Shown here in pieces: positions 33,912 to 45,246 of a DNA stretch of 64,000 nt. The position numbers and the translations under genes are program-made. Location: positions 15,148 through 79,147 of the forward strand of contig CAJWWC010000005.1 in the NCBI GenBank assembly GCA_913048435.1, read 5' to 3'. How positions within the stretch are numbered: the first letter of the stretch is position 1; every line of letters starts with the position of its first letter. The notes under the pieces were generated by a model. That model worked only from the letters and a program-made list of their open reading frames with translations, did no database searches and had not been told where the DNA came from. Source of the DNA: an uncultured Flavobacteriales bacterium. GTDB lineage: Bacteria; Bacteroidota; Bacteroidia; Flavobacteriales; UBA7312.

Positions 33912-34277
33912 ATGAATTCATTCATTATCTATATCGATTCTTGGTGTCCGATGTGCATACGTTTTGGGGCTTGGCTCAAGTGTTTAGATATTTTTAATGG
34001 TATCCGTCAAGCCGATATACGCACCTATAAGGGCACAGTTATTTCCAAAGAAAAAGGTTTAACAGAACTTGCTTCAATTAATAGACAATCTCGTGTCTAC
34101 TATGGTTACGATAGTATCTTACAAATTGTAGTTAGATTACCTCTATTATGGGTGTTTGTTCCTTTCTTCTATATTTTAAAAGTGAGTAGGCTAGGGCATT
34201 GGGCTTATAAGGAATTGGCTGTTAAGCGTCAGATTATTCCTTTACATTGTAAAGAAAAAGACTGCCGCCCTAATTAG
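33912..34277 (+). CDS. DCC-family (DUF393) thiol-disulfide oxidoreductase
   Basis: N-terminal IYIDSWCPMC motif (DxxCxxC), 121 aa. Confidence 0.7.
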   Translation: MNSFIIYIDSWCPMCIRFGAWLKCLDIFNGIRQADIRTYKGTVISKEKGLTELASINRQSRVYYGYDSILQIVVRLPLLWVFVPFFYILKVSRLGHWAYKELAVKRQIIPLHCKEKDCRPN

Positions 34278-34767
34278 TGTTTTGTGCTTTTTTCATAGCC
34301 TTTGCTAGGGTTTGATGCTTTTGACTACCAAATAAGACCTTTCTTCCGTTGGTCAATTCAATTTGCAATCCTTTATTCCCACTAACGTTGTATGCCTTAC
34401 TGTCAAAACCAAATCGTATACCCCAACCTCCAAACTCCTTCATTGGAGAGTAAGTACGGGCTTTATAGTTTTTGATATCTTCAAAGGCAATCAATCGTTC
34501 TTTGATATGTATGGGAAAAAACTGATAGTGCAATCCTTCAGAGCTAACTCTTAGCTTAAGCTTCATAAACCAAAATAATACCGGCAACCCTAAACCAATA
34601 ATTAGGGAAAAGGTAATTATACCCTCATCACTAAGGGGTTTATCGCCAATAATATTACCCATTATAACTTGTTGGTAGATGCCGTACAATGAAAATGCTG
34701 GAAAAAAAAGGATAACTAACCAAAGTAGTTTTTGTCTAAAATATTGTTCCTCTTTGAAGTAATTCAT
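34270..34767 (-). CDS. Membrane protein: two N-terminal TM helices plus a C-terminal soluble domain of unknown function
   Basis: 165 aa. Its start overlaps the stop of the upstream DUF255 gene by 4 nt. Confidence 0.5.
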
Positions 34768-36785
34768 TGCACTAAATTTAATACTTTTTCAAGTTCTGTA
34801 GTTGGTAACTGACAACTTTTGTTTTTGCAAATGTAGAAAGTTGTTTGTCCTTCTATCATTTTATTTTGTAACAAAGGTAATGTGCTTTCGGTCGTGCTGC
34901 CTAATAGCAAGGTGTTTGGGGCATAGTATTGTTTAAAGTCTAAGGCTTTTTCTAGGGCTTGATTTCCAACAATAGCTACTTCATAAAAAGGGGCTGTATA
35001 GTTTAGCATCAAGATAGCCCAATTGGAATAGCCTGAACCATAAGAGGGTATATCACTTTTGATATTGTTTAATTGCAGTTGTGCCATATTCAAATAGTCG
35101 CTATTGTTTAAAAGTTGTCCTAAAGTAAATAGGTTATTGGCCATAACGGAAGACGAGGCCGGCATAACATTATCATTAATTTCTATTTTACGAGCAATTA
35201 GGGGCGGATCTAAGTCTGAGGTGAAGAAAAACATACTATTCTGACTATTGTAAAAATGATCGAGGCAATAGTCTGTTAAGTGCTTAGCCTTGTCTAGCCA
35301 TTGCTCATCAAAGGTCGCTTCATACAATCTTATGAACGCCGAAATGGTTAAGGCATAGTCTTCTAAAAAACCATTAATTGAAGACTGTCCGTTTTTGTAA
35401 CTGTGCCACATTCTATAGTCACTTTGACATTGTTTGTCGATAATAAAGCGGGCGTTTTTTATAGCGCAGTGTAAATAGTATTTATTTCCAAAAGCTAAGT
35501 AGGCATCGGAATAGGCTTGGCACATTAGGGCATTCCAAGAGGTTAATAATTTATCGTCTAAAGCTGGGCTTGTGCGTTGTTCTCTTTCTTCTAACAATTG
35601 GCTTTGCCATACTTTGACTTTTTTCTGCAGAACGCTTAGCTCTAGATTTTCTTTTTTACAAAAGTCGGTATCGCTTTGATCTTTGATTAAGATATAATTG
35701 CCTTTTTCCCAAAAGCCCTTATGGTTGATGTTGTAGTATTTAGAAAACAGAGGATAGTCTTGCCCCAAAAGCCTCTTTAGTTCTTCTTTTTTCCAGACGT
35801 AAAACTTACCTTCAACTCCTTCGCTATCGGCATCTAGAGCTGAATAGAAAGCGCCATTATCATGCCTCAACTCCCTTTCAATAAAGGTTAAAGTTTGTTT
35901 TACAATTTCCTTATACAATTCTTTACCGTAACATGTGTATGCTTCACTGTATAAACTTACCAATTGAGCGTTGTCGTACAGCATCTTTTCAAAATGAGGC
36001 ACTTTCCATAGTTTATCTGTAGAATAACGGGCAAAGCCACCGCCCACTTGGTCGTATATACCACCACAAGCCATTTTATCTAGTGTTAGCTGAACGTAAT
36101 CACTTAGTTTATTATCTTTTTTGAGATGCGCATAGCGCATCAAAAAAAGTAAGTTATTAGGAATAGGAAATTTAGGTGCTCGCTTAGGACCTCCATTTTT
36201 TTTGTCGAATTGTTTGCTCCAAGTTTCGAGAGTTTTTTCTAAATCCTGCCAACTGAATTTGGGCTTTTCTTTATTGTAGCTGACTAGCTCCGACTGTTGT
36301 ATACCTTTAGCTAACTTTTGGGCATAGTCCAGCATTTTTTGTGGACGTTGGTCGTAAAAATTGGCGACATGATTAATCTGTTCTATCCATTGTTTTTTAG
36401 TAAAGTAGGTGCCTCCCCAAACTGGTTTGCCATCGGGCAAGGCAATGCAATTGAGTGGCCAGCCTCCACGTTGTTGCATTAGTTGAACAGCATTCATATA
36501 AACTTGGTCAACGTCTGGGCGTTCTTCTCTGTCGACTTTGATATTAATGAAACGCTCGTTCATGACTAGTGCCACTTGTTCATTTTCAAAACTTTCGTAC
36601 TCCATAACGTGACACCAATGACAAGCCGAATAACCGATGCTTATGATAAGAAGTTTACCTTCTTCTTTAGCTTTGACTAGTGTTTGTTCATTCCAAGGAT
36701 ACCAATCTACAGGGTTATGGGCGTGTTGTAATAAATAGGGACTACTCTCATTGATGAGAGCGTTGGTATGTTTAGGTTCGTTCAT
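34764..36785 (-). CDS. Thioredoxin-domain protein of the DUF255/YyaL family (thioredoxin fold plus a six-hairpin glycosidase-like domain)
   Basis: [31 protein letters not shown], 673 aa. Confidence 0.85.
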
Positions 36786-36809
36786 TTCAGTCGTTAGTCA
36801 AATGCAAAA

Positions 36810-37253
36810 CTATTTGTAGATAGTTAAGGGCGATGATGTTATGAGATTACTGCTATTACCTGCTCTGTCAACGGCGTAAATATCAAAAGTGACTTCTTGC
36901 TCGTTGCTTCCGTCTGTTATGGAGATGGTATTCAAGACAATGTCTAAAGTGCCAATGATTGCAATATCTGCCCCTTGTGGTGCTAACTCTTTAATACGAT
37001 ATTCGTAGGTAATACCGTTTCGCAGGTCTTGTAAAAATAGATTTTTTACGTCGGAGTCATTTTCTCCCAAATCGCCATCTCCATCTTGATAAGAGATGCT
37101 AAAGGTAATGGGTCCTCCAAATTCTTGAACAGAGGAGGGGGATATGCTTTCAAAAGTTAGTTGAGGAACAATAGATAAACTATCCTCATCTTTTTTACAC
37201 GAGTAAAATACTAAAATGACTAAAAGTAATGCTACTGAACGACAAATGACCAT
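36810..37253 (-). CDS. Small lipoprotein, beta-sandwich-like, unknown function
   Basis: Lipobox LVFYSC followed by KKDEDS, 147 aa. It overlaps the upstream gene by 22 nt. Confidence 0.6.
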   Translation of the reverse strand: MVICRSVALLLVILVFYSCKKDEDSLSIVPQLTFESISPSSVQEFGGPITFSISYQDGDGDLGENDSDVKNLFLQDLRNGITYEYRIKELAPQGADIAIIGTLDIVLNTISITDGSNEQEVTFDIYAVDRAGNSSNLITSSPLTIYK

Positions 37254-38158
37254 AGGGATTTGATATAGATTTCACTTTCATTTTCGGGGTGCTTTGACAT
37301 TTGAGGGTTCTCGTCTTTTGTGTGGTATCTCATAAAATATTGCTGGTTGCTAGAGAAGACAGAAGAATTTATGCTGATAATAAAGGGATAACCGTATTGT
37401 TCGCTATCTATACATACAGCTTGAAATTCTTGAGCTTGTGAAAAATCATTGATGTCAGTAGACACAAAAAGTTTGTTGTAATGTAAGTTGAGGTTGTGTG
37501 TGGTATCGTCATCAACATCTATTATGATATTTAAGTCAGTACTATCTGGAATGATAAATGGATTATACCAAATGTCATCGACTTTATTGTCACTAAACAC
37601 CGTTTCGTAAGTGGTGTCGTATACGGCAAAATAATGAATATTTGGTAGGGCATTAGGTTCGTTGGCAACATTGGAAGATAAGTCTCTAGCCCCGTCCATT
37701 ATCCAACTTCCGATTTGGTCTATAGCTTCTTGAGGCATAGCTGTACCTATATTGTCTTGAGGCATTCTGTCGTTTTCATTAACAAAACAACAGTTAGTTA
37801 TGCGTTCCCATAATACTGAATTGGCTGTGTCGAAAGGAATTACTCTATATTCAAATTCTTGAGCTAAATTGTTTTTATTAATTCTGTGGTAAACTAGTGT
37901 AGAAAAGCTGCTTTGAGGTGTTCTGAAATCGGGCTCAAAAGAACCGTCGTGACAGCCAAGTACATTACAGTTTGGCTCAAAAACTTCTTCATGAGTTCTG
38001 GTTAAAGAATTTGGACTTGAACTGTTGTCGTTGATGTTGTTTACATCATAAATAATATCGGCATAGGGATTATAAGGTTGTACGTCTTTTTTACAACTTA
38101 TAAATATACAAAAGGTCAGTATGACTAAAGATAAAAGGTAATAATTAAATCGTATCAT
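37232..38158 (-). CDS. Lipoprotein with a Planctomycete-cytochrome-C-like (PSCyt-type) domain, motif CNVLGCH
   Basis: Lipobox IFISC followed by KKD. VFEPNCNVLGCHDG ... SVLWERIT ... RMPQDN ... AIDQIGSWIMDGA follows the PSCyt pattern (C..CH, S.L, MP, WI..GA) as I remember it. Confidence 0.55.
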   Translation of the reverse strand: MIRFNYYLLSLVILTFCIFISCKKDVQPYNPYADIIYDVNNINDNSSSPNSLTRTHEEVFEPNCNVLGCHDGSFEPDFRTPQSSFSTLVYHRINKNNLAQEFEYRVIPFDTANSVLWERITNCCFVNENDRMPQDNIGTAMPQEAIDQIGSWIMDGARDLSSNVANEPNALPNIHYFAVYDTTYETVFSDNKVDDIWYNPFIIPDSTDLNIIIDVDDDTTHNLNLHYNKLFVSTDINDFSQAQEFQAVCIDSEQYGYPFIISINSSVFSSNQQYFMRYHTKDENPQMSKHPENESEIYIKSLWSFVVQ

Positions 38159-39474
38159 CAGTTAAAAGCTTCGTTAAGTACATTACCATTTATTCTTCCA
38201 ATGGGAATATCGTTATCGAAACCTAGTATGTTAGCTACAGTAGGAACAATATCAATGGTTTCTTTTTCTGTATCAATGATAGAATTGGTATTGACAAAAC
38301 TATCGGTTTGATGCCCTAATACCATAGTAAATACATCTCTACTCATAGAATCACCTGTATGGTCAGTACCTTCTCGACCAAAAGCATCTACACGTCCATT
38401 AGTCTGTGAATTACGTCCATGTTCTGGTACAGCAATTAGGATGGTGTTTTCCATCCCCGCTGTAGTTTTTATAGTTTTCCATAAATGAGCAAGAGCATAG
38501 TCTGCACGCTTTAGATTTTTTAAATAATTTGTGGTATTTGAGTGAGCAGTATCAACGTTTTGCATGTTAACGACTAAAAGTTCTGGTTTAAATTCTTTGA
38601 TAATTTCTTCGGCAAAAAATATAGTTAACATATCGTTATTATAGACATTAATGCCTATGTTCCATGGGTCATTAAAAGCTCCTAAAGCGGTTTTTTCAAA
38701 GTTGTCTTGAATAAATGATTCTAGTAAAATTCTGTCTTCTATAGTATTGACAATACCTTCATTGTTGCTAAACACTCTACTAAAGTTTTCATCACAAAAA
38801 CCTCTTAATGCATTGATATTTTGATTGGTGTTTTGATTGTTGCCAAAAGCAAAATTTTCGGCAGAATAAATAGAGTCGTAACCAACATTCAAAAACCTTT
38901 GTGGCTGAATGTAGTTGGCACCATAAGCTGGGCCATAGCTAGGGTCAGTGCTGTAATTAAGTTGAGGATATGGACCTAATGAATTAGAAACCCACCAGGC
39001 GTTTAGTGCACTCATAGAAGGTGAGTTGTGTTTTCTATACAATTCGAACAAAGTCGGATATTGTGGATTAGAGTTTATGTTTAAATTGGTATCTGTATAA
39101 ACTCCAGTTAATAGAGTGGCGTGTCCGTTATAATGACCTGTTGGTCCATATTTCAGCTTAACATTGGAAAACAAAGTGCCCTGTTCTTGTAAAGTTTGTT
39201 CAGATGGTGTCCCAAGGATTTGCCCCACATCATCGCCAGCTAAATCTTCAGTGCTACCGTTAAAGGTGTAGGGCATTACATTGCCATAACTCCCATTGGC
39301 AAACAAATGAGATTCTAAACTTCTTACACCACCAGCGAATAAACAAACTACTACATGATTGGCTTTCCTAGCGCCAGTAGCAGCAAAAAGTCTACCTGAT
39401 GGTAAGATGTAAGGAGCGACTAATGTAGTTCCGGTGGTTAATCCCAATTTTTTTATGAATGTTCGCCTTTTCAT
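38158..39474 (-). CDS. Tat-exported DUF1501 family protein (alkaline phosphatase/sulfatase superfamily)
   Basis: Twin-arginine signal MKRRTFIKKLGLTTG, VVVCLFAGGVRSLES near the N-terminus, and GREGTDHTGDS near the C-terminus. Confidence 0.6.
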   Translation of the reverse strand: MKRRTFIKKLGLTTGTTLVAPYILPSGRLFAATGARKANHVVVCLFAGGVRSLESHLFANGSYGNVMPYTFNGSTEDLAGDDVGQILGTPSEQTLQEQGTLFSNVKLKYGPTGHYNGHATLLTGVYTDTNLNINSNPQYPTLFELYRKHNSPSMSALNAWWVSNSLGPYPQLNYSTDPSYGPAYGANYIQPQRFLNVGYDSIYSAENFAFGNNQNTNQNINALRGFCDENFSRVFSNNEGIVNTIEDRILLESFIQDNFEKTALGAFNDPWNIGINVYNNDMLTIFFAEEIIKEFKPELLVVNMQNVDTAHSNTTNYLKNLKRADYALAHLWKTIKTTAGMENTILIAVPEHGRNSQTNGRVDAFGREGTDHTGDSMSRDVFTMVLGHQTDSFVNTNSIIDTEKETIDIVPTVANILGFDNDIPIGRINGNVLNEAFN

Positions 39475-39476
39475 AA

Positions 39477-39965
39477 TTAATAGTATCGATATTCATTAGA
39501 TGTCATTAACGAATAATAGACCATTTCAGCATCTATTTCTTGATGGCTATAAATGTAATCTGTCAAATACCACTTTTCAAATGCATTGGGTGTTCTATTA
39601 AAAATAGTTTCGTAGGTCTCTTGAACAAATTGCTTTACCGTTTGCTCAGTTGATCGGTCGATATTAGGAATTTGACTATTCTCATCCGAAATGAACTTAC
39701 GAATAATCATTTCTATTACAATTGATTTATCGCCAAAGGATTTATACACTGTTATGATATCATCAAGTTCGCCTTGTGAAATGTTTTGAGCATACAAATC
39801 ATTGAAAGCAATGGATACAAATTCAATGTCTGTTTTTAGTCTGTTTTTATCGGCAGAGGCTTGGTTGATTTCAACATTTTCTAGTTCAAATAAATAATTG
39901 GGGTCTTTGGAGCAAGCAACTATTAAGCATGTACAAATAAGACTTATGTAAAAATGATTTTTCAT
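39477..39965 (-). CDS. Lipoprotein with two DUF4214-like repeats
   Basis: Lipobox LIVAC followed by SKD. Repeats are FVSIAFNDLYAQNISQGELDD... and FVQETYETIFNRTPNAFEKWYL...SNEYRYY. Confidence 0.55.
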   Translation of the reverse strand: MKNHFYISLICTCLIVACSKDPNYLFELENVEINQASADKNRLKTDIEFVSIAFNDLYAQNISQGELDDIITVYKSFGDKSIVIEMIIRKFISDENSQIPNIDRSTEQTVKQFVQETYETIFNRTPNAFEKWYLTDYIYSHQEIDAEMVYYSLMTSNEYRYY

Positions 39966-40825
39966 TCTATTCCTAGATATTCGTCTGTTATTAAAATACG
40001 TTTTTGTAATTCCTTATAATCGTTATCAGTCTTAAAAAGGGTAGTGAGTTCGTAACTTTCTGATGAGCTAGGGTCACGGAATAATATCCTATTATAAATA
40101 TTGATTACTTGACCTTCATAATAGCCGTCGTGGTTGAAAAATAAATCGTTAAAATCTGATTTGCTATTTCCATTACCTCCAAAACAAACTGCTTGTTCAT
40201 CGTCCAACATATTAACACCATGTTCTATTTCATATTCTGTTGGGTATCTATGTAAAAAATTTTGATATATAGAAACTACATAATTAAAACTACCCATATT
40301 AATTTCGTCATAAATGAAATTATCTACGCATCTAGCTTGAATCTCTTTAATATTAGCCGCATTAGCTTTCATGTCGTCAGTACTGTTGTAAAGTAGATAC
40401 AATTTTGCTAAACTTTCTTCAATCTCTTGTGTTTCAAAAGGGTCGTCGCTATTTTCTAATGCTTCTTCAAATCCATAAATGTAATCTTCTCTTATTTGAT
40501 TGGTATCTACTCCATTGATTAAATCTTGTCTAATAATATTAAACATATTGTCGTAGTATTCCTCTTTGGCTTGTACGCTTTTTACTAAATGTTCTCGACT
40601 TTCTATAGTTACCTCCTCATCTAATAGGTTTTTTGCTGAATTGAACTCATCAATATTAGGCTCTCTTCCTAACATGCTAATGTATAGTTTGTTGATGTAA
40701 TTTTCTTTGATTACTCGATCTATGGTGTTGTCCGGCGGAGCTACATTATTTGGGATAACCTCCGTAGATTCCTTACTACAGCTGAACACTAAAGCGAGGG
40801 CAATCAAGAAAAGGGTATTACGCAT
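39962..40825 (-). CDS. Lipoprotein with three DUF4214-like repeats
   Basis: Lipobox LVFSC followed by SKE. Repeats are INKLYISMLGREPNIDEF..., VSIYQNFLHRYPTEYEIEHG... and INIYNRILFRDPSSSESYEL... Confidence 0.55.
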   Translation of the reverse strand: MRNTLFLIALALVFSCSKESTEVIPNNVAPPDNTIDRVIKENYINKLYISMLGREPNIDEFNSAKNLLDEEVTIESREHLVKSVQAKEEYYDNMFNIIRQDLINGVDTNQIREDYIYGFEEALENSDDPFETQEIEESLAKLYLLYNSTDDMKANAANIKEIQARCVDNFIYDEINMGSFNYVVSIYQNFLHRYPTEYEIEHGVNMLDDEQAVCFGGNGNSKSDFNDLFFNHDGYYEGQVINIYNRILFRDPSSSESYELTTLFKTDNDYKELQKRILITDEYLGIE

Positions 40826-40833
40826 CTAAAGAA

Positions 40834-42222
40834 TTATTGATTTAACTCTCTAAATTTAGAAAAAAAGTGTGGAATAGTTTCTATGCCTTTAAAATAGTTG
40901 AATAAACCAAAGTGTTCATTTGGGGAATGGATAGCATCACTATCTAATCCAAAGCCCATAAGAATAGATTTTACACCAAGTTCTTTTTCAAATAGCGCTA
41001 CGATAGGAATACTTCCACCACTTTTTATTGGTACGGGCTTTTTACCGAAGGTAGACTCCATAGCAGCGCTTGCTGATAAGTAAGCTGGACTATCTGTAGG
41101 TGCTACATAAGGTTTTCCCCCATGATGTGGATGTACTTCTACTTTTACACTCTTTGGTGCAATGGCCTTGAAATGGTCTTCAAATAGCTTTGTAATTTCT
41201 TCATCTGTTTGATTAGGAACTAGACGCATAGAAATTTTAGCAAATGCTTTTGATGCAATGACTGTTTTTGCGCCTTCTCCGGTATATCCGCCCCATATTC
41301 CATTAACATCAAGAGTAGGGCGTATACCTGTTCTTTCCATAGTTGTATAGCCTTCTTCTCCATGAACATCGTTGATGTCTAATGCCATTTTATATTGTTC
41401 TAAAGAAAAGGGAGCCCTCGCCATATCAGCTCTTTCTTGTGAAGATAATTCGACCACCTTATCGTAAAAACCGGGAATAGTGATGTGGTTATTTTCATCT
41501 TTCATGGATGCTATCATCTCGCATAAAATATTGATGGGGTTGGCAACGGCACCTCCATATAAGCCAGAATGTAAATCTCGATTTGGACCTGTTAACTCTA
41601 CTTCTACATAGCTCAATCCTTTAAGACCTGTAGTGATAGATGGCGTGTCATTAGCAATGATTCCTGTATCAGAAATAAGAATAGCATCGCACTCCAAACG
41701 TGATTTGTTAGACTTAACAAAATCACCTAAATTATCAGAGCCGACCTCTTCTTCTCCTTCAATCATAAACTTGATATTACACGATAATGAGTTGGTTCGC
41801 ATCATCAATTCAAATGCTTTGACGTGCATAAACATTTGTCCTTTATCATCACAAGCCCCTCTAGCAAAAATAGCGCCATTTGGATGTATGTCTGTAGTCT
41901 TAATAACGGGGTCAAAAGGACCGCTTTCCCAAAGCTCTAAAGGGTCGGCAGGTTGAACATCGTAATGACCATAGACTAAAACAGTTGGTAGCTGAGGGTC
42001 AATGATTTTTTCACCGTAGACAATGGGGTATCCTTTAGTGGAGCAGATTTCTACCTTGTTGGCACCAGCTTTGATTAAATGCTCTTTAACGGATTCGGCA
42101 CAAGCGTAAACATCATGTTTGTAAGTGGGGTCTGCACTAATGGAGGGAATTTTAAGTAAATCTATTAATTCCTCTACAAATCGGTCTTTGTGTTCTTGAA
42201 TGTATTTCTTAATGTGTTCCAT
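40834..42222 (-). CDS. M20-family dipeptidase/acyl-amino-acid hydrolase
   Basis: 462 aa with GHYDVQP, ARGACDDKG and MIEGEEEVGS metal-site motifs. Confidence 0.85.
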   Translation of the reverse strand: MEHIKKYIQEHKDRFVEELIDLLKIPSISADPTYKHDVYACAESVKEHLIKAGANKVEICSTKGYPIVYGEKIIDPQLPTVLVYGHYDVQPADPLELWESGPFDPVIKTTDIHPNGAIFARGACDDKGQMFMHVKAFELMMRTNSLSCNIKFMIEGEEEVGSDNLGDFVKSNKSRLECDAILISDTGIIANDTPSITTGLKGLSYVEVELTGPNRDLHSGLYGGAVANPINILCEMIASMKDENNHITIPGFYDKVVELSSQERADMARAPFSLEQYKMALDINDVHGEEGYTTMERTGIRPTLDVNGIWGGYTGEGAKTVIASKAFAKISMRLVPNQTDEEITKLFEDHFKAIAPKSVKVEVHPHHGGKPYVAPTDSPAYLSASAAMESTFGKKPVPIKSGGSIPIVALFEKELGVKSILMGFGLDSDAIHSPNEHFGLFNYFKGIETIPHFFSKFRELNQ

Positions 42223-42224
42223 AA

Positions 42225-43739
42225 TTAAACGAGACTATTTCCTGTCATTTCCTTAGGGATGTCTATTCCCATAATTGTTAATATTGTTGGGGCAATATCG
42301 CCCAATTTTCCGTTACTTAAATGCGTGTAATCGCTGTTCAATAAAAAGCTTGGTACTAGATTAGTGGTATGTGTTGTGTTAGAACTACCGTCAGTATTAA
42401 TAGCAAATTCGGCATTGCCATGATCGGCAATAATGATAAAGATATAATCGCTTTTTAGACCCACTTCAACAACTTCTTTAGTGCATTGATCTACTGTTTC
42501 AACAGCTCTAATGATGGCTTCATAATTGCCAGTATGTCCAACCATATCAGCATTGGCAAAATTCAAACATACAAAGTCGGCTCTAGCATGTTTTAGCTCA
42601 GGCACAATTTTAGCTACAACTTCATGAGCGCTCATCTCGGGTTGTAAATCATAAGTAGAGACTTTTGGGGAATTTACCATCAGTCGCTTTTCTCCTTCGA
42701 ATTCAGTTTCTCTGCCACCAGAAAAAAAGAAAGTAACGTGCGGGTATTTTTCTGTTTCAGCAATACGTATTTGCTTCAATCCATTTTCGGCAATGACTTG
42801 TCCGAGTGTATTGTTGAGGTTATCTTTTTCAAATATAACGTTAACTTTTTTGAAACTTTTATCGTACATAGTCATAGTGGTATAGTGTAAGTCTAAAGTA
42901 TGCATATCAAACTCTGTCATATCTTCTTGAGTAAGTACATTAGTGATTTCTCTACATCTATCTGTTCTGAAATTAAAACATATCACAGCATCACCGTCTT
43001 TGATCCTTGCTACAGGGTCATTTTTATCATTTACACAAACTATGGGTTTTATAAATTCGTCTGTAACACCATCATCGTAAGAATTTTGAATACTCTGTAC
43101 TATATCTTTTGTGGACTTTCCTTTACCTTTAGTTAATAAATCGTAGGCTTGTTTTATACGTTCCCAGCGATTATCTCTGTCCATAGCGTAATATCTGCCA
43201 CAGACTGAGGCTATCTTTGCACCATAAAGATTTTTTTTTAATTTTTCTAAAAATCGTTTGGCACTCTTTGGGTCGGTGTCTCTGCCGTCTGTAAAGGCAT
43301 GTACATAGACTTCTTTTACTTTAAATTTTTGTGCTAAGCGACATAGTTCGAATAGGTGTTTATAATTGGAGTGGATGCCACCATCAGAAACAAGTCCTGT
43401 AAGATGTAAAGCTTTTTTGTTTTTATTAGCATAGTCAAATGAGGCTATTAGGTTTGACATTTTCTCAAGATTACCTTCAGCACATACTTTATTGATTTTG
43501 GCTAAATTTTGATAGACAACTCGTCCTGCTCCAATATTCATGTGTCCAACTTCAGAGTTACCCATTTGGCCTTCCGGTAGTCCCACTGCTAAACCATCAG
43601 TTTGTAATTCAGCATTGGGGTATTTTTTATAAAGTGAGTCTATAAAAGGAGTATTAGCATTGTGAATAGCATCCGATTTAGTTTTATCTCCATGTCCCCA
43701 ACCATCTAAAATCATTAAAATTAATTTTTTTCTTCTCAT
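42225..43739 (-). CDS. gpmI: 2,3-bisphosphoglycerate-independent phosphoglycerate mutase
   Basis: LMILDGWG, GNSEVGHMNIGAGR, ADHGNAE, 504 aa. Confidence 0.95.
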   Translation of the reverse strand: MRRKKLILMILDGWGHGDKTKSDAIHNANTPFIDSLYKKYPNAELQTDGLAVGLPEGQMGNSEVGHMNIGAGRVVYQNLAKINKVCAEGNLEKMSNLIASFDYANKNKKALHLTGLVSDGGIHSNYKHLFELCRLAQKFKVKEVYVHAFTDGRDTDPKSAKRFLEKLKKNLYGAKIASVCGRYYAMDRDNRWERIKQAYDLLTKGKGKSTKDIVQSIQNSYDDGVTDEFIKPIVCVNDKNDPVARIKDGDAVICFNFRTDRCREITNVLTQEDMTEFDMHTLDLHYTTMTMYDKSFKKVNVIFEKDNLNNTLGQVIAENGLKQIRIAETEKYPHVTFFFSGGRETEFEGEKRLMVNSPKVSTYDLQPEMSAHEVVAKIVPELKHARADFVCLNFANADMVGHTGNYEAIIRAVETVDQCTKEVVEVGLKSDYIFIIIADHGNAEFAINTDGSSNTTHTTNLVPSFLLNSDYTHLSNGKLGDIAPTILTIMGIDIPKEMTGNSLV

Positions 43740-43848
43740 TTAACGCAAAGATAGTTGCTTTATAGCCAATTCAATACTAAAATATGCTAAAGTTAGATGA
43801 TTAAACTATTTTACTTTGTACTTTATAAAAAAATAATTTTCTATAATT

Positions 43849-44226
43849 TTAGGGATATAATAGACGATCTAATTTTTTCAGATCATTAGGAACCAGAATG
43901 TATTTCTTTTTACGAATTTTGTAAGTTATTTTACAAACTGTATCTGAATTCCAAACTTTTTTGTTTTTGTAAGCGAATACTTTTAGAGAATCCCCTTTAT
44001 TAAATTTTAAAGGATTTAAATTAAAGTCTAAATATCTATTATGTGCTTTAATGGATTGAATTTTAAATAAAGAATCGTTTTCTGGGGCAATAAATTCGAA
44101 GTGATAATTTGTTCCACTACCTGTTTCTGGACGCCCACCAACCCAATCCTGGTATGAGGACGACACTAGAAATTCTGTCGTGTTACAAGAGAAAAAAATT
44201 GACAATATGAGTAATTTGTTTTTCAT
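43849..44226 (-). CDS. Small lipoprotein of unknown function, last gene of the carotenoid operon
   Basis: The ATG at 44226 gives MKNKLLILSIFFSC (lipobox). The ORF-track start at 44244 is a TTG. Confidence 0.5.
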   Translation of the reverse strand: MKNKLLILSIFFSCNTTEFLVSSSYQDWVGGRPETGSGTNYHFEFIAPENDSLFKIQSIKAHNRYLDFNLNPLKFNKGDSLKVFAYKNKKVWNSDTVCKITYKIRKKKYILVPNDLKKLDRLLYP

Positions 44227-44244
44227 TTTTGCAATCAAGATCAA

Positions 44245-44694
44245 TCATAGTTGAGCTTTAGCTTCTTTCCAAAATTTTAAGGGAACAATTAACATTCCAA
44301 AACACTTACCATTTTCTTTAACTCGACTTTTATGATGTACTCTATGTGCTTTTCTTATGGCCTTGAAATAAGTTAAAGTTGTTCGTTTAAATAATTTTAT
44401 GCGTTGATGAATAAATATTTCATGTATTATAAAATATGCAAAGCCGTAAAGAGTTATACCGATGCCAACAAATAGTAATGTAGAGCCTAATATCATAAAT
44501 ACAGCTCCAGGTATAGCGAATATTAGAAAAAAAGCATCATTATTTTCAATTATTTTATTTTTATTTACTTCATGATGGTCTTTGTGTAAATTCCACAAAA
44601 ATCCGTGCATTACATATTTATGTGTAGCCCAAGCTATAAATTCCATTAACAAAAATGTAAGAATAACAATTGAAATGTTTAGAACTATATTCAT
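44245..44694 (-). CDS. crtZ: Beta-carotene 3-hydroxylase (fatty acid hydroxylase family)
   Basis: 149 aa membrane protein with the His boxes HKYVMH, HKDHH, HEIFIHQR and HRVHHK. Confidence 0.85.
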   Translation of the reverse strand: MNIVLNISIVILTFLLMEFIAWATHKYVMHGFLWNLHKDHHEVNKNKIIENNDAFFLIFAIPGAVFMILGSTLLFVGIGITLYGFAYFIIHEIFIHQRIKLFKRTTLTYFKAIRKAHRVHHKSRVKENGKCFGMLIVPLKFWKEAKAQL

Positions 44695-44703
44695 ATTAGT
44701 AAA

Positions 44704-45246
44704 TTAAGCAATTAAAACTTTGTTGTGTAAATTTGATTTTGTCTTTAAAACTCTACTTAAACATATTTTAAACCAAGGTGTAAATAAATGTGGTCTTAAT
44801 TTTATTTCATTTAATAGATCATTAACAGCTATATATCGATATTCTATTACTTCGGAAGGATTAGGTTTTGGTGTTTTATCAGAAAAACCAATAAAAACAT
44901 GATCAAGTTCATTTTCAACTAGTCCATTATTAAACGATGCATTATAAATGAAATTAAAAGCATAGAATATATCGCATTTTATACCCATTTCCTCTCTTAG
45001 TCTTCTTTCTGCAGCAAACTTAACTAATTCGTTTAATCTAGGATGGCTACAAGCTGTGTTGCTCCATAGACCTGCTGTATGATATTTGTTTAATGCACGT
45101 TTTTGTAGTAGCATTTCACCTTTGTAATTAAAAATAAAAACCGATAGAGCTCGGTGTAAAAGACCTTTTTGGTGAGCTTCAAGTTTGCCTACTTTACCAA
45201 TGTAATTATCATTTTTATCTACTAGTATAACTTGTTCTTCCATCAT
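44704..45246 (-). CDS. idi: Isopentenyl-diphosphate delta-isomerase, type 1 (Nudix fold)
   Basis: LHRALSVFIFN, WSNTACSHP and ENELDHVF motifs. Confidence 0.85.
   Translation of the reverse strand: MMEEQVILVDKNDNYIGKVGKLEAHQKGLLHRALSVFIFNYKGEMLLQKRALNKYHTAGLWSNTACSHPRLNELVKFAAERRLREEMGIKCDIFYAFNFIYNASFNNGLVENELDHVFIGFSDKTPKPNPSEVIEYRYIAVNDLLNEIKLRPHLFTPWFKICLSRVLKTKSNLHNKVLIA

What the first reader, a model, noticed from the sequence alone, without database searches (positions are those of the whole stretch)
36810..40825. Five-gene operon of exported unknowns: four acidic-lipobox lipoproteins (DUF4214-like repeats, PSCyt-like domain) plus a Tat-exported DUF1501 protein
The genes are packed tightly, with a 4-nt overlap, 2-nt gap, 1-nt overlap and 22-nt overlap.

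All four lipoproteins have Cys followed by (S/K)K(D/E): CSKE, CSKD, CKKD and CKKDED. That resembles the Bacteroidota lipoprotein surface-export signal.

The 287-aa and 162-aa proteins together carry five copies of a DUF4214-like repeat (LY..mLGR.P...E...). The 438-aa protein has a twin-arginine signal and DUF1501 (phosphatase/sulfatase-superfamily) hallmarks. The 308-aa protein looks like a Planctomycete cytochrome C (PSCyt) domain.

In Planctomycetes, DUF1501 genes are paired many times per genome with PSCyt/DUF1549/DUF1553 proteins, and no function is known. Here the same partnership seems to be rebuilt from separate surface lipoproteins in a Bacteroidota host. That offers a simpler handle on an uncharacterised system.
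Basis: partly seen in the sequence, partly recalled or inferred. Interest (0 to 1): 0.7.

Follow-up and report, generated by a model that had tools for sequence, protein, structure and literature searches.

The report
Conserved Bacteroidota envelope enzyme–cytochrome gene cassette
Five neighbouring genes of an uncultured marine flavobacterium encode an exported phosphatase-type metalloenzyme, a haem-type lipoprotein and three helper lipoproteins; the set is kept together in many Bacteroidota and looks like a split-up relative of an abundant enzyme–cytochrome gene pair of Planctomycetes whose function is unknown.

Summary

Tight spacing is not evidence of an operon here. It is typical of the whole window, and the co-directional gene string runs past both ends of the five genes.

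The real evidence is synteny. A relative of the 438-aa enzyme was found in 290 GTDB species genomes. The 80 loci retrieved were all metagenome-assembled genomes, nearly all labelled Bacteroidota, and the order A-B-C-D-E is kept wherever the contig has room.

Domain calls:
- 287-aa protein: DUF4214 / phycobilisome-linker-like, three units.
- 162-aa protein: the same unit, one clear copy and one degenerate.
- 438-aa protein: Tat-exported alkaline-phosphatase-superfamily enzyme. It passes Pfam Phosphodiest but falls below the DUF1501 cut-off, although its motifs line up with verified DUF1501 proteins.
- 308-aa protein: a c-type cytochrome domain with an invariant CX4CH motif, homologous to PSCyt1 (hhalign 97%, E 9e-11), followed by an Ig-like domain.
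- 147-aa protein: probably a beta-sandwich (weak hits only) with an acidic loop.

Only the 147-aa protein meets the experimentally defined surface-export signal.

Verdict: a real, unnamed module, most likely a split, lipoprotein-anchored variant of the DUF1501–PSCyt/PSD modules. Its substrate and chemistry remain inferred.

The parts
39962..40825 (-). A287: lipoprotein (…VFSC-SKE) with three DUF4214 / phycobilisome-linker-like helical units (strict motifs start at residues 47, 186, 243). Proposed scaffold or adaptor.
   Evidence: ORF. Pfam DUF4214 30.2 bits, above the 23.2 cut-off; 33/34 family members hit DUF4214, 12/34 PSD1, 5/34 PSCyt2. PDB profile hits to phycobilisome linker proteins at E 1.7e-7. 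Motif count. hhalign against the DUF1549 region of verified PSCyt2-PSD1 proteins gives E 9.6e-4.
39477..39965 (-). B162: small lipoprotein (…VAC-SKD) with one clear and one degenerate DUF4214-like unit; shares that helical unit with A287.
   Evidence: ORF. DUF4214 14.8 bits, below the cut-off, but 24/36 orthologues hit it weakly. hhalign of the A287 family against the B162 family: 88.6% probability, E 2.7e-6. Motif count.
38158..39474 (-). C438: Tat-exported alkaline-phosphatase-superfamily metalloenzyme, the presumed catalytic component. It is similar to DUF1501 but is not a member by Pfam's threshold.
   Evidence: Pfam Phosphodiest 29.2 bits (cut-off 23), DUF1501 21.0 (cut-off 27), Sulfatase 17 (cut-off 25). 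AlphaFold model pLDDT 77. Foldseek: 338 PDB matches at E ≤ 0.001 in the alkaline-phosphatase superfamily, including 3lxq, sulfatases, LtaS, MCR-1 and PafA. hhalign against verified DUF1501: E 2.5e-4; the global alignment is collinear. Invariant residues T112, D308, H311, H352, D371, H372.
39448..39471 (-). Twin-arginine motif KRRTFIKK of C438.
   Evidence: Translation. An RRxF-type motif is present in 75 of 81 orthologues; five of the other six shown have KRK or NRK and one is an N-terminally cut ORF call.
39133..39147 (-). GPTGH motif of C438, carrying the proposed Thr112 nucleophile.
   Evidence: Translation. GPTGH is present in 76/81 orthologues, and no sulfatase C/S-x-P-x-R motif is found in 0/81. 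Thr112 is invariant. Its role as nucleophile is inferred from its position relative to Thr-nucleophile members of the superfamily.
37232..38158 (-). D308: lipoprotein (…ISC-KKD) with an N-terminal PSCyt1-like c-type cytochrome domain and a C-terminal Ig-like beta-sandwich.
   Evidence: ORF. AlphaFold model pLDDT 92, with a helical domain at about residues 50-165 and a beta-sandwich at 173-307. Foldseek finds only Ig-like/RhoGDI-type matches, attributable to the C-terminal domain.
37664..38011 (-). Cytochrome-c-like domain of D308 (residues 50-165).
   Evidence: Translation. hhalign against eight PSCyt1 domains: 97% probability, E 9.4e-11; reversed control E 0.41. PDB profile hits: FoxE E 1.3e-4, then cytochromes c6. 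hhalign against the N-terminal domain of verified PSCyt2-PSD1 proteins: E 4.2e-4.
37949..37969 (-). CNVLGCH: CX4CH putative haem-attachment motif (Cys64, Cys69, His70). The proposed distal ligand is Met132 in the RMP motif.
   Evidence: Translation. C64, C69, H70, M132, P133, W152 and I153 are invariant across 62 diverse family members. CX4CH spacing in 75/76 orthologues and [RQK]MP in 71/76. The same CNxxGCHG string occurs in verified PSCyt2-PSD1 proteins.
36810..37253 (-). E147: small lipoprotein (…YSC-KKDED), probably a beta-sandwich, with an invariant Y-x-D-G-D-G-D-L-G acidic loop. It is the only component with a full surface-export motif.
   Evidence: ORF. Invariant residues. Only weak Pfam hits to C2, fn3 and DUF5126. 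No PDB sequence hit. The surface-export consensus is from PMC5080379.

Best explanation
What it is. This is a conserved five-gene cell-envelope module of Bacteroidota. It is a split, lipoprotein-anchored relative of the DUF1501–PSCyt/PSD gene modules known from Planctomycetes and Verrucomicrobia.

Components. The catalytic part is C438. It is folded, and presumably loaded with metal, in the cytoplasm and then exported by the Tat pathway. It has an alkaline-phosphatase-superfamily fold, a probable threonine nucleophile (Thr112) and conserved Asp/His/Glu metal ligands. No sulfatase formylglycine motif is present, so it should cleave or transfer a phosphoryl-type (less likely sulfuryl-type) ester. 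D308 is an outer-membrane lipoprotein whose N-terminal domain is a PSCyt1-type monohaem cytochrome c. It has an unusual CX4CH attachment site and His/Met ligation, followed by an Ig-like domain. A287 and B162 are lipoproteins built from phycobilisome-linker-like (DUF4214) helical units. E147 is a small lipoprotein with an acidic loop, probably a beta-sandwich.

How it probably works (inferred). The linker-like lipoproteins and the Ig-like domains tether and organise the soluble Tat enzyme and the cytochrome at the outer membrane, most simply on its periplasmic face. The cytochrome either sets the redox state of the enzyme's metal centre or carries out a redox step on the same substrate.

Shown versus inferred. 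Shown: gene order and its conservation, the folds and domain homologies, the signal types and the invariant residues. Inferred: complex formation, haem binding, the substrate, the location relative to the outer membrane, and the role of the cytochrome.
For: - Synteny. A C438 relative is present in 290 species genomes, and the A-B-C-D-E order is kept in the 82 loci examined (72-82 loci per gene, the shortfall mostly at contig ends). Flanking genes vary.
- C438. Pfam Phosphodiest is above its cut-off. The alkaline-phosphatase-superfamily fold is confirmed. T112, D308, H311, H352, D371 and H372 are invariant. GPTGH is present in 76/81 orthologues, [ED]HGRN in 81/81 and a formylglycine motif in 0/81. 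A Tat motif is present in 75/81.
- D308. C64, C69, H70, M132 and P133 are invariant. hhalign against PSCyt1 domains gives 97% probability, E 9.4e-11. The best PDB hit is the cytochrome FoxE at E 1.3e-4. The model is confident, pLDDT 92.
- A287 and B162. Pfam DUF4214, phycobilisome-linker hits in the PDB, and a shared unit between the two families.
- Link to DUF1501–PSCyt/PSD modules. Comparison sets were fetched from metagenomes and verified by Pfam. Three component-to-component matches gave E 2.5e-4 to 9.6e-4, whereas 11 controls gave E 0.03 or worse. C438 and DUF1501 align collinearly from the Tat signal to the C-terminus. D308 and the verified PSCyt2-PSD1 proteins share the CNxxGCHG string. 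Both systems contain the same set of domain types: an Ig-like domain, a cytochrome, LGR-P-E helical units and a Tat-exported alkaline-phosphatase-type enzyme.
- Literature. DUF1501 paired with PSCyt1/PSCyt2/PSD1 proteins is documented, with function unknown (PMC3542564, PMC5615132).
Against: - C438 scores below the DUF1501 gathering threshold (21.0 against 27). Its similarity to DUF1501 could be no more than superfamily-level; Phosphodiest scores higher, and hhalign gives only 43% probability.
- The A287–DUF1549 match is short, covering one helical unit, with 22% probability. B162 shows no significant match.
- The usual first-strand aspartate metal ligand is replaced by AGG-x4-Glu.
- No transcript, protein, haem or activity data exist, and no RNA runs were found.
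- Complex formation was not modelled.
- A CX4CH site may need a dedicated haem lyase, or may not bind haem at all.
- A soluble Tat-exported periplasmic enzyme and surface-exposed lipoproteins would lie on opposite sides of the outer membrane, so at least part of the 'surface' picture conflicts with the proposed complex.
Confidence: 0.55

Rival explanations
1. A stand-alone organophosphate-scavenging system. C438 would be a Tat-exported phosphodiesterase or phosphatase, comparable in role to PhoD/PhoX/PafA. The lipoproteins would only bind substrate or anchor the enzyme. The resemblance to DUF1501–PSCyt modules would be superfamily-level only and carry no functional meaning.
For: Phosphodiest is the only Pfam family above its cut-off for C438, and 10 of 18 family members hit it. 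The motif around the proposed Thr nucleophile resembles that of NPP-type enzymes (inference from the alignment). Tat export is known for the phosphatases PhoD and PhoX (general knowledge). The window organism comes from surface-ocean metagenomes.
Against: The invariant cytochrome-type domain is left unexplained. The cassette also occurs in genomes whose record names point to non-marine sources, such as pond and membrane-bioreactor samples, so it is not specific to phosphate-poor ocean water. No Pho-type regulation could be examined. Three independent components point to the same PVC-type module.
Confidence: 0.2
2. A sulfated-glycan or other sulfate-ester processing module, with C438 acting as an unconventional sulfatase.
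For: Many of the top Foldseek matches are carbohydrate sulfatases. PSCyt genes often lie next to sulfatase genes in Verrucomicrobia (PMC5615132). Four of 18 family members weakly hit Pfam Sulfatase.
Against: No C/S-x-P-x-R formylglycine motif is found in any of 81 orthologues. The Sulfatase score is below its cut-off (17 against 25). No SusC/SusD, glycoside hydrolase or other polysaccharide-utilisation gene family recurs among the conserved neighbours (only M20 and DUF255 were annotated, the rest were judged by recurrence).
Confidence: 0.07
3. Primarily a structural envelope assembly. The linker-like and Ig-like lipoproteins would build an outer-membrane-associated scaffold, and the enzyme-like and cytochrome-like proteins would be non-catalytic structural subunits.
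For: A287 and B162 are homologous to phycobilisome linker domains, which are pure scaffolds. The first-strand aspartate ligand of the alkaline-phosphatase superfamily is missing in C438. The haem motif is non-canonical.
Against: The remaining metal ligands, the proposed Thr nucleophile, CX4CH-His and Met-Pro are invariant across distant orthologues. That pattern is expected for working active and cofactor sites. The Tat signal is retained.
Confidence: 0.08
4. No functional unit: the five genes are merely inherited together, and the tight spacing reflects a streamlined genome.
For: Spacing is equally tight throughout the window. A cytoplasmic M20 dipeptidase also travels with the block in 33-35 of the 82 loci, which shows that passive linkage does occur here.
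Against: Order and orientation are kept across genomes labelled Flavobacteriales, Chitinophagales and Sphingobacteriales, at 30-55% protein identity, while everything else around the block changes. All five products are exported, and four have the same lipoprotein signal type.
Confidence: 0.05

Closest known systems
DUF1501 – PSCyt1/PSCyt2(DUF1549)/PSD1(DUF1553) gene modules of Planctomycetes, Verrucomicrobia and Lentisphaerae (Kamneva et al. 2012, PMC3542564; He et al. 2017, PMC5615132)
   Same: Both have a Tat-signal alkaline-phosphatase-type enzyme encoded next to a cytochrome-c-motif protein. The same set of domain types is present: an Ig-like domain, a cytochrome domain, helical LGR-P-E units and the enzyme. 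D308 is homologous to PSCyt1 domains and shares the CNxxGCHG string with verified PSCyt2-PSD1 proteins. C438 aligns collinearly with verified DUF1501. Members of the A287 family hit PSD1 and PSCyt2. Function is unknown in both cases.
   Different: Here the large multidomain PSCyt/PSD protein is replaced by four separate small lipoproteins. The enzyme does not reach the DUF1501 threshold. Every retrieved locus carries a single cassette (copy number per genome was not examined), whereas PVC genomes carry dozens of paralogues. The host phylum is Bacteroidota. The DUF1549/DUF1553 cores themselves are absent; only the short DUF4214-like unit is shared.
Nucleotide pyrophosphatase/phosphodiesterase family (Pfam PF01663) and other Thr-nucleophile members of the alkaline-phosphatase superfamily (PafA, LtaS, MCR-1/EptA)
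   Same: The fold matches. The Pfam score is above the cut-off. The conserved Thr-Gly-His motif, D-x-x-H, (D/E)-H and D-H ligand motifs are present.
   Different: Identity to any solved structure is only 10-17%, with TM-scores of about 0.36-0.47. A profile search of PDB sequences found nothing. The first aspartate ligand is replaced by a GG-x4-Glu motif that resembles DUF1501. The enzyme has a Tat signal and a dedicated set of partner genes.
FoxE, the di-haem c-type cytochrome of Rhodobacter ferrooxidans (PDB 5mab), and class I cytochromes c6
   Same: FoxE is the best PDB sequence match of the D308 family (E 1.3e-4). Both of its haem domains align over the 'PGd..S…MP…WI..GA' region. The order is the same: haem motif, then the Met ligand, then the C-terminal helix.
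   Different: D308 has one domain, a CX4CH motif instead of CXXCH, a lipid anchor and an appended Ig-like domain. No link to iron oxidation is shown.
Phycobilisome linker polypeptides (Pfam PF00427) / DUF4214 (PF13946)
   Same: The helical units of A287 match linker proteins in solved phycobilisome structures (E 1.7e-7 and 8e-7) and pass the DUF4214 cut-off. This suggests a scaffold or adaptor role.
   Different: A287 and B162 are lipoproteins in a non-photosynthetic phylum with no phycobiliproteins. The partners of these units here are unknown.
Bacteroidota surface lipoproteins carrying the lipoprotein export signal (Lauber et al. 2016, PMC5080379)
   Same: All four are lipoproteins with Lys at +3 and an acidic residue at +4, and this is conserved across orthologues. 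E147 (CKKDED) fits C-X-K-(D/E)2-X.
   Different: A287 (CSKEST), B162 (CSKDPN) and D308 (CKKDVQ) have only one acidic residue within the defined signal positions, so they fall short of the experimentally defined minimum. Surface exposure is untested.

Membership tests
DUF4214 (Pfam PF13946) | Whole-protein score at or above the gathering cut-off of 23.2 bits | tested here: met
   A287 scores 30.2 bits with two stretches, and 33/34 family members hit. B162 scores only 14.8 bits, so it is not met for that protein, although 24/36 orthologues give weak hits and its unit aligns with that of A287 (E 2.7e-6).
DUF1501 (Pfam PF07394) | Whole-protein score at or above the gathering cut-off of 27 bits | tested here: not met
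   C438 scores 21.0 bits, E 2.2e-4, over residues 308-378 only. Only 3/18 family members hit. Verified DUF1501 proteins score about 290 bits.
DUF1501 (Pfam PF07394) | Twin-arginine signal and a motif layout collinear with family members | tested here: inconclusive
   A Tat motif is present in 75/81 orthologues. hhalign against verified DUF1501 gives E 2.5e-4 at 43% probability over the C-terminal half; the reversed control gives E 0.14. The global alignment keeps the order RR signal, GG-x4-acid, TG, D..H, E[HF]GR, GR..DH, LG[FI]D. This could still reflect superfamily-level similarity only.
DUF1501 (Pfam PF07394) | Encoded next to a PSCyt/PSD-type partner protein | tested here: met
   D308, with its PSCyt1-like domain, is the next gene downstream (1-nt overlap). 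This neighbourhood is kept in 79-80 of the 82 loci.
Alkaline-phosphatase superfamily (Pfam Phosphodiest PF01663 as its representative) | Pfam score above the cut-off and the superfamily fold | tested here: met
   PF01663 scores 29.2 bits against a cut-off of 23. Foldseek finds 338 PDB matches at E ≤ 0.001, the best at 7e-9, all listed ones from the superfamily.
Alkaline-phosphatase superfamily | Conserved nucleophile and metal-ligand residues | tested here: inconclusive
   T112, D308, H311, H352, D371 and H372 are invariant and E351 nearly so. The canonical aspartate after the first strand is absent, replaced by AGG-x4-E54. Residue roles are assigned by motif position, not by structural superposition.
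Type I (formylglycine) sulfatases | C/S-x-P/A-x-R formylglycine motif | tested here: not met
   The motif is found in 0 of 81 orthologues in the relevant region. Pfam Sulfatase scores 17 bits, below its cut-off of 25.
PSCyt1, Planctomycete cytochrome C (Pfam PF07635) | Whole-protein score at or above the gathering cut-off of 22 bits | tested here: not met
   D308 gives no hit even at E ≤ 10. Only 3 of 62 diverse family members hit weakly, the best at E 0.027.
PSCyt1, Planctomycete cytochrome C (Pfam PF07635) | Homology to the domain by profile-profile comparison | tested here: met
   hhalign of the D308 family against eight PSCyt1 domains (two Pfam-verified, six their tblastn relatives) gives 97.0% probability, E 9.4e-11. 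The reversed control gives E 0.41, and the other four cassette families and DUF1501 give E 0.096-0.54.
PSCyt1 / class I c-type cytochromes | CXXCH haem-attachment motif and a distal Met ligand | tested here: inconclusive
   The motif is CX4CH, not CXXCH (75/76 orthologues). It aligns with the CXXCH of PSCyt1 via the verified PSCyt2-PSD1 N-terminal domain, which has the same CX4CH. Met132-Pro133 are invariant. Actual haem binding cannot be tested with these tools.
Bacterial lipoproteins (signal peptidase II substrates) | Hydrophobic signal followed by a lipobox ending in an invariant Cys | tested here: met
   A lipobox-type Cys after a hydrophobic stretch is found in 65-71 orthologues of each of the four families; the Cys is invariant in the alignments. 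A pattern search was used, not a dedicated predictor.
Bacteroidota surface-exposed lipoproteins (lipoprotein export signal) | C-X-K-(D/E)2-X immediately after the lipidated Cys (PMC5080379) | tested here: inconclusive
   E147 (CKKDED) meets it. A287 (CSKEST), B162 (CSKDPN) and D308 (CKKDVQ) have K plus one acidic residue. Surface exposure itself cannot be tested here.
Operon (single transcription unit of exactly these five genes) | Co-transcription with its own promoter and terminator | not testable with these tools
   No RNA runs hold the sequence. No minus-strand terminator-like site lies in 34000-45000, and promoter-like hits are at the chance level. The scan does not model Bacteroidota promoters. 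Spacing is uninformative.

The most novel reading that the evidence does not exclude
The cassette is the minimal form of the DUF1501–PSCyt machinery, found as one copy per retrieved locus. It would be an outer-membrane-tethered complex in which a CX4CH monohaem cytochrome is the obligatory redox partner of an unusual alkaline-phosphatase-fold enzyme. The cytochrome would either keep a redox-active metal centre in its working state or couple ester cleavage to an electron-transfer step. Phycobilisome-linker-like lipoproteins would act as the assembly scaffold. If so, it would define the chemistry of one of the largest uncharacterised paralogous gene families in Planctomycetes and Verrucomicrobia.
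Probability: 0.15. Interest if true: 0.8.

Novelty: new variant of a known kind. Interest (0 to 1): 0.6.

Why it matters
DUF1501 and PSCyt/PSD proteins form very large paralogous families in Planctomycetes and Verrucomicrobia. They have been flagged since 2004-2012 as an important system of unknown function (PMC3542564, PMC5615132). Redundancy and large multidomain proteins make them hard to study.

The cassette described here spreads the same kinds of domains over five small, separately encoded proteins. Each retrieved locus carries a single cassette, and the cassette is strongly conserved in Bacteroidota. Each part can therefore be expressed, mutated and assayed on its own.

It also extends two families. 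PSCyt-type cytochromes now include a CX4CH variant, and phycobilisome-linker-like domains now appear in lipoproteins of a non-photosynthetic phylum.

The practical value is limited for now. Every carrier seen in the 80 retrieved loci is a metagenome-assembled genome, so a cultured host has still to be found. The function itself remains unknown.

Tried and rejected
- Pfam and NCBIfam scans of D308 and E147 gave nothing usable.
- A profile search of PDB sequences with the C438 family found no relative. The same search with the E147 family also found none.
- The full-length Foldseek search of the D308 model returned only Ig-like matches for its C-terminal domain.
- The exhaustive representative search with the D308 profile listed only family members in its top 150, so the distant tail (505 hits at E ≤ 0.001) was not visible.
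- tblastn of C438 against plasmids found only weak hits to sulfatase-like and alkaline-phosphatase-family genes, with no DUF1501.
- No DUF1501-type (EFGR) or CXXCH partner genes were found in the window or in the 82 Bacteroidota loci.
- No RNA-seq runs contain the gene.
- The sigma-70 promoter scan is at chance level and does not suit Bacteroidota promoters. An imperfect TAnnTTTG-like string (TAAATTTA) lies about 30 nt upstream of A287, but it is not evidence.
- Rfam found nothing in the window.
- E147 and the C-terminal domain of D308 are not detectably related; only their signal peptides align.
- The type I sulfatase reading was rejected, because the formylglycine motif is absent in 0/81 orthologues.
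- Spacing as evidence for an operon was rejected.
- A literature search for DUF4214 and for DUF1501 with DUF1800 found no description of this cassette.

Method note. The DUF1501 comparison loci were fetched with a bait sequence that I wrote from memory as a family consensus. The bait itself is not evidence. Only the retrieved metagenome proteins were used: the DUF1501 and PSCyt2-PSD1 sets and two PSCyt1 proteins after Pfam verification, and six further PSCyt1 domains taken as tblastn relatives of those two.

Full report
**1. What is in the sequence**

The minus strand of 36810-40825 holds five ORFs, exactly as described:
- A287: 39962-40825
- B162: 39477-39965
- C438: 38158-39474
- D308: 37232-38158
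- E147: 36810-37253

The junctions are a 4-nt overlap, a 2-nt gap, a 1-nt overlap and a 22-nt overlap. Four products begin with a hydrophobic signal ending in a lipobox cysteine: VFSC-SKE, VAC-SKD, ISC-KKD and YSC-KKDED. C438 begins MKRRTFIKK.

Two qualifications apply. First, the spacing is not distinctive. In this 64-kb window, 33 of 47 same-strand neighbour pairs are 25 nt or less apart, with a median gap of 2 nt. Second, the co-directional string does not stop at the five genes. A phosphoglycerate-mutase-like ORF and an M20 dipeptidase (8-nt gap) lie upstream. A DUF255/Thioredox_DsbH gene (24-nt gap) and a 165-aa ORF lie downstream. No minus-strand terminator-like site is found between 34000 and 45000, and promoter-like hits are at chance level. 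No RNA run holds the sequence. The transcription unit therefore cannot be defined from this window.

**2. Conservation**

A scan of one genome per GTDB species found relatives of C438 in 290 genomes. The 80 best loci are all metagenome-assembled genomes. They are labelled Flavobacteriales, Chitinophagales, Sphingobacteriales or unclassified Bacteroidia/Bacteroidota, apart from a few bins with doubtful labels. The closest is an uncultured marine Flavobacteriales bin at 92% identity.

I ran tblastn with all window proteins against these loci and two further ones. The order A-B-C-D-E on one strand appears in essentially every locus with enough room: C in 82, D in 80, B in 79, E in 77 and A in 76. 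Nearly all absences are at contig ends.

Independent clustering of all ORFs in the 82 loci gives the same five families as the only universal ones. The M20 dipeptidase lies upstream in 33 loci, DUF255 downstream in 15, an extra 156-aa ORF follows E in 9, and everything else varies. Orthologues are only 30-55% identical, so this is maintained linkage rather than recent common ancestry. The five-gene unit is real, but it is defined by synteny and not by spacing.

**3. The enzyme, C438**

Pfam places C438 in the alkaline-phosphatase clan:
- Phosphodiest (PF01663): 29.2 bits, cut-off 23.
- DUF1501: 21.0 bits, cut-off 27.
- Sulfatase: 17 bits, cut-off 25.

Across 18 relatives the hits are Phosphodiest 10, Sulfatase 4, DUF1501 3 and Metalloenzyme 2. 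A profile search of PDB sequences finds nothing.

An AlphaFold model (pLDDT 77, pTM 0.82) matches 338 PDB chains at E ≤ 0.001. The listed matches are all from the alkaline-phosphatase superfamily (3lxq, carbohydrate sulfatases, LtaS, MCR-1, PafA). TM-scores are only about 0.36-0.47 and identity is 10-17%. C438 is thus a distant, unnamed branch of that superfamily.

Invariant residues across 41 relatives include T112 (in GPTGH), D308 and H311 (VD-x-x-H), H352 (in EHGRN) and D371-H372. GPTGH occurs in 76/81 orthologues and [ED]HGRN in 81/81. A formylglycine motif occurs in none, so C438 is not a type I sulfatase. The usual aspartate after the first strand is replaced by AGG-x4-Glu54. A twin-arginine motif is present in 75/81 orthologues.

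Assigning Thr112 as the nucleophile, and the Asp/His/Glu residues as metal ligands, is an inference from motif position.

**4. The cytochrome-type lipoprotein, D308**

Pfam and NCBIfam find nothing in D308. Its family is large: 505 representatives at E ≤ 0.001 among clusters at 50% identity.

Across 62 diverse members the invariant residues are the lipobox Cys, C64, C69, H70, P76, P108, S114, R119, M132, P133, W152, I153 and P291. This is the pattern of a class I cytochrome c: a haem-attachment site, a distal Met-Pro and a C-terminal 'WI..GA' helix. The attachment site, however, is CX4CH; 75/76 orthologues have that spacing.

The AlphaFold model is confident (pLDDT 92). It shows a helical domain at about residues 50-165 and a beta-sandwich at 173-307. 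Foldseek on the whole model reports only Ig-like/RhoGDI-type folds for the C-terminal domain.

By sequence profile, the best PDB match is the di-haem cytochrome FoxE (E 1.3e-4, with both of its haem domains aligning). Cytochromes c6 follow at E about 1, and HMMER places their CXXCH opposite the CX4CH with a two-residue gap. Scanning the 62 members one by one gives PSCyt1 as the most frequent weak Pfam hit (3 members, best E 0.027), alongside Cytochrom_C, Cytochrome_CBB3 and CTI.

**5. The three other lipoproteins**

A287 passes DUF4214 (30.2 bits), and 33/34 relatives hit it. The same relatives also hit PSD1/DUF1553 (12/34, best 1.5e-5), PBS_linker_poly (10/34) and PSCyt2/DUF1549 (5/34). Its profile matches phycobilisome linker proteins in solved structures (E 1.7e-7 and 8e-7). 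It has three strict copies of the Y..(L/F).R.P...E unit.

B162 is below the DUF4214 cut-off (14.8 bits), but 24/36 orthologues hit it weakly. Its C-terminal unit aligns with the first unit of A287 (hhalign 88.6% probability, E 2.7e-6). It has one strict and one degenerate unit.

E147 has no family assignment. It has an invariant Y-x-D-G-D-G-D-L-G loop and weak hits to C2, fn3 and DUF5126 beta-sandwich families. It has no PDB sequence hit, and no detectable relation to the C-terminal domain of D308.

**6. Direct test of the planctomycete-module idea**

The literature documents DUF1501 genes paired with PSCyt1/PSCyt2/PSD1 proteins in Planctomycetes, Verrucomicrobia and Lentisphaerae. Many of these carry Tat signals, and their function is unknown. 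The module is also noted in 'a few species of Bacteroidetes' (PMC3542564; PMC5615132).

To compare profiles I needed real members of these families. I used a consensus-like DUF1501 bait, written from memory, to fetch 79 metagenome loci. I then checked the retrieved proteins by Pfam and used the bait for nothing else:
- 16 of 16 enzyme ORFs are DUF1501 (about 290 bits).
- 11 of 11 adjacent large ORFs are PSCyt2 + PSD1, and 8 of them also carry Big_2.
- Two further proteins are PSCyt1-PSCyt2-PSD1.

The hhalign results are:

| Comparison | E-value | Note |
|---|---|---|
| D308 family vs N-terminal domain of the PSCyt2-PSD1 proteins | 4.2e-4 | 34% probability; CX4CH aligned on an identical CN-x-x-G-C-H-G string |
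| C438 family vs DUF1501 | 2.5e-4 | 43% probability; 124 columns of the C-terminal half |
| A287 family vs DUF1549 region | 9.6e-4 | 22% probability; one helical unit |
| B162 family vs PSCyt2-PSD1 proteins | 0.1 | not significant |
| Eleven reversed-sequence or cross-family controls | 0.03-0.86 | scores 12-23.5, against 36.5-39.9 for the three matching pairs |
| D308 family vs eight PSCyt1 domains | 9.4e-11 | 97.0% probability, score 70 |
| D308 family vs the same eight domains reversed | 0.41 | control |
| The other cassette families and DUF1501 vs the eight PSCyt1 domains | 0.096-0.54 | control |
| CX4CH N-terminal domain of the PSCyt2-PSD1 proteins vs PSCyt1 | 1.5e-7 | 94% probability |

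A global hhalign of C438 with DUF1501 is collinear. It runs from the RR signal through GG-x4-acid, TG, D..H, E[HF]GR and GR..DH to LG[FI]D.

I conclude the following. The cytochrome call is right at the level of homology, although D308 fails PSCyt1's own Pfam threshold and has a variant haem motif. The enzyme resembles DUF1501 but is not a member by Pfam's rule, and its similarity may be superfamily-level only. The helical lipoproteins share only a short unit with DUF1549/DUF1553. The set of domain types in the two systems is the same: an Ig-like domain, a CX4CH cytochrome, LGR-P-E helical units and a Tat-exported alkaline-phosphatase-type enzyme. Here they are distributed over five small proteins.

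**7. Location**

The experimentally defined lipoprotein export signal of Bacteroidota is C-X-K-(D/E)2-X (PMC5080379). Only E147 (CKKDED) meets it. A287 (CSKEST), B162 (CSKDPN) and D308 (CKKDVQ) have Lys at +3 and one acidic residue. Across orthologues, K at +3 and D/E at +4 dominate in all four families. A second acidic residue at +5 is frequent in the A287 and E147 families and in a minority of D308 orthologues, and is rare in B162.

C438 has no lipobox, and no C-terminal sorting domain was identified in it. After Tat export it should be periplasmic. Haem attachment also takes place in the periplasm. A complex on the periplasmic face of the outer membrane is therefore the simplest reading. 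Surface exposure of some components is possible but untested.

**8. Best explanation and rivals**

Best explanation (confidence 0.55). This is a conserved envelope module, a split and lipoprotein-anchored variant of the DUF1501–PSCyt/PSD modules. A Tat-exported metallo-esterase or transferase with a probable Thr nucleophile works together with a monohaem cytochrome. Linker-like and Ig-like lipoproteins organise the two at the outer membrane. The cytochrome's role, either redox control of the metal centre or a redox step on the substrate, is inference.

Rivals:
- A plain phosphate-scavenging phosphodiesterase whose likeness to DUF1501 is only superfamily-level (0.2).
- A mainly structural assembly (0.08).
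- An unconventional sulfatase system (0.07).
- Passive linkage with no shared function (0.05).

**9. Novelty and value**

All members of the five protein clusters that carry a name are called 'hypothetical protein', and the samples named are Tara Oceans metagenomes. More distant C438 relatives carry at most the name 'alkaline phosphatase family protein'. The literature searches found no description of the cassette.

It is best classed as a new variant of a known but uncharacterised kind. It offers a simpler handle on the DUF1501/PSCyt problem. The value is reduced because every carrier seen in the retrieved loci is an uncultured genome, and because nothing here reveals the substrate.

Noticed in passing
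window 1-64000: The genome is highly compact. About 89% of the window is covered by the listed ORFs. The median same-strand intergenic distance is 2 nt, and 18 of 47 same-strand neighbour pairs overlap. Rfam found no RNA family anywhere in the 64 kb.
   Followed up: partly
window 40834-42222 (-): An M20 dipeptidase (NCBIfam PRK08201-type, 541 bits) with no signal peptide lies 8 nt upstream of the cassette. It lies upstream on the same strand (immediately so in most) in 33-35 of the 82 loci from several Bacteroidota orders. That is unusually persistent linkage for a cytoplasmic housekeeping-type enzyme.
   Followed up: partly
window 34764-36785 (-) and 34270-34767 (-): A DUF255/Thioredox_DsbH protein (CHWCH motif, no signal peptide) and a 165-aa ORF that overlaps it by 4 nt follow the cassette. 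The DUF255 gene is downstream of the cassette in 15-17 of the 82 loci, including a Bacteroidetes genome whose enzyme is only 52% identical (L001).
   Followed up: partly
window 39373-39414 (-), C438 residues 21-34: The stretch PYILPSGRLFAATG, directly after the Tat motif, is almost invariant across the family (P21, L24, P25, G27, L29, F30, A31, G34, then R36). This is far more conserved than a signal-peptide h/c-region normally is. It has low confidence in the model. It may be a docking or processing motif.
   Followed up: no
window 37070-37096 (-), E147 residues 53-61: An acidic loop, Y-x-D-G-D-G-D-L-G, is invariant in 35 orthologues. It looks like a calcium-binding loop on a small beta-sandwich.
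   Followed up: no
L085:8693-11239 and ten similar metagenome loci (alignment A9): Pfam-verified PSCyt2-PSD1 proteins next to DUF1501 genes carry an N-terminal cytochrome-like domain. Pfam does not call it at E ≤ 0.001, and it has CX4CH (CN-x-G-G-C-H-G-K) instead of CXXCH. A His-Gly-Gly-Gly motif stands where PSCyt1 has Met-Pro. By hhalign the domain is homologous to PSCyt1 (94% probability, E 1.5e-7).
   Followed up: partly
L001:10739-11215, L043:9692-10162 and seven other loci: In 9 of the 82 loci a sixth ORF of about 156 aa directly follows the E147 orthologue on the same strand. It is absent from the window and was not characterised.
   Followed up: no
window 7005-14156 (+): A very long ORF of 2383 aa with a GTG start lies upstream in the window. 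It was not examined.
   Followed up: no
window 37787-37792 (-), D308 residues 123-124: A Cys-Cys pair (NCCFVN) is invariant among close relatives of D308 (24 sequences) but is not conserved in the wider family of 62. It may be a lineage-specific disulfide or an extra ligand near the haem pocket.
   Followed up: no
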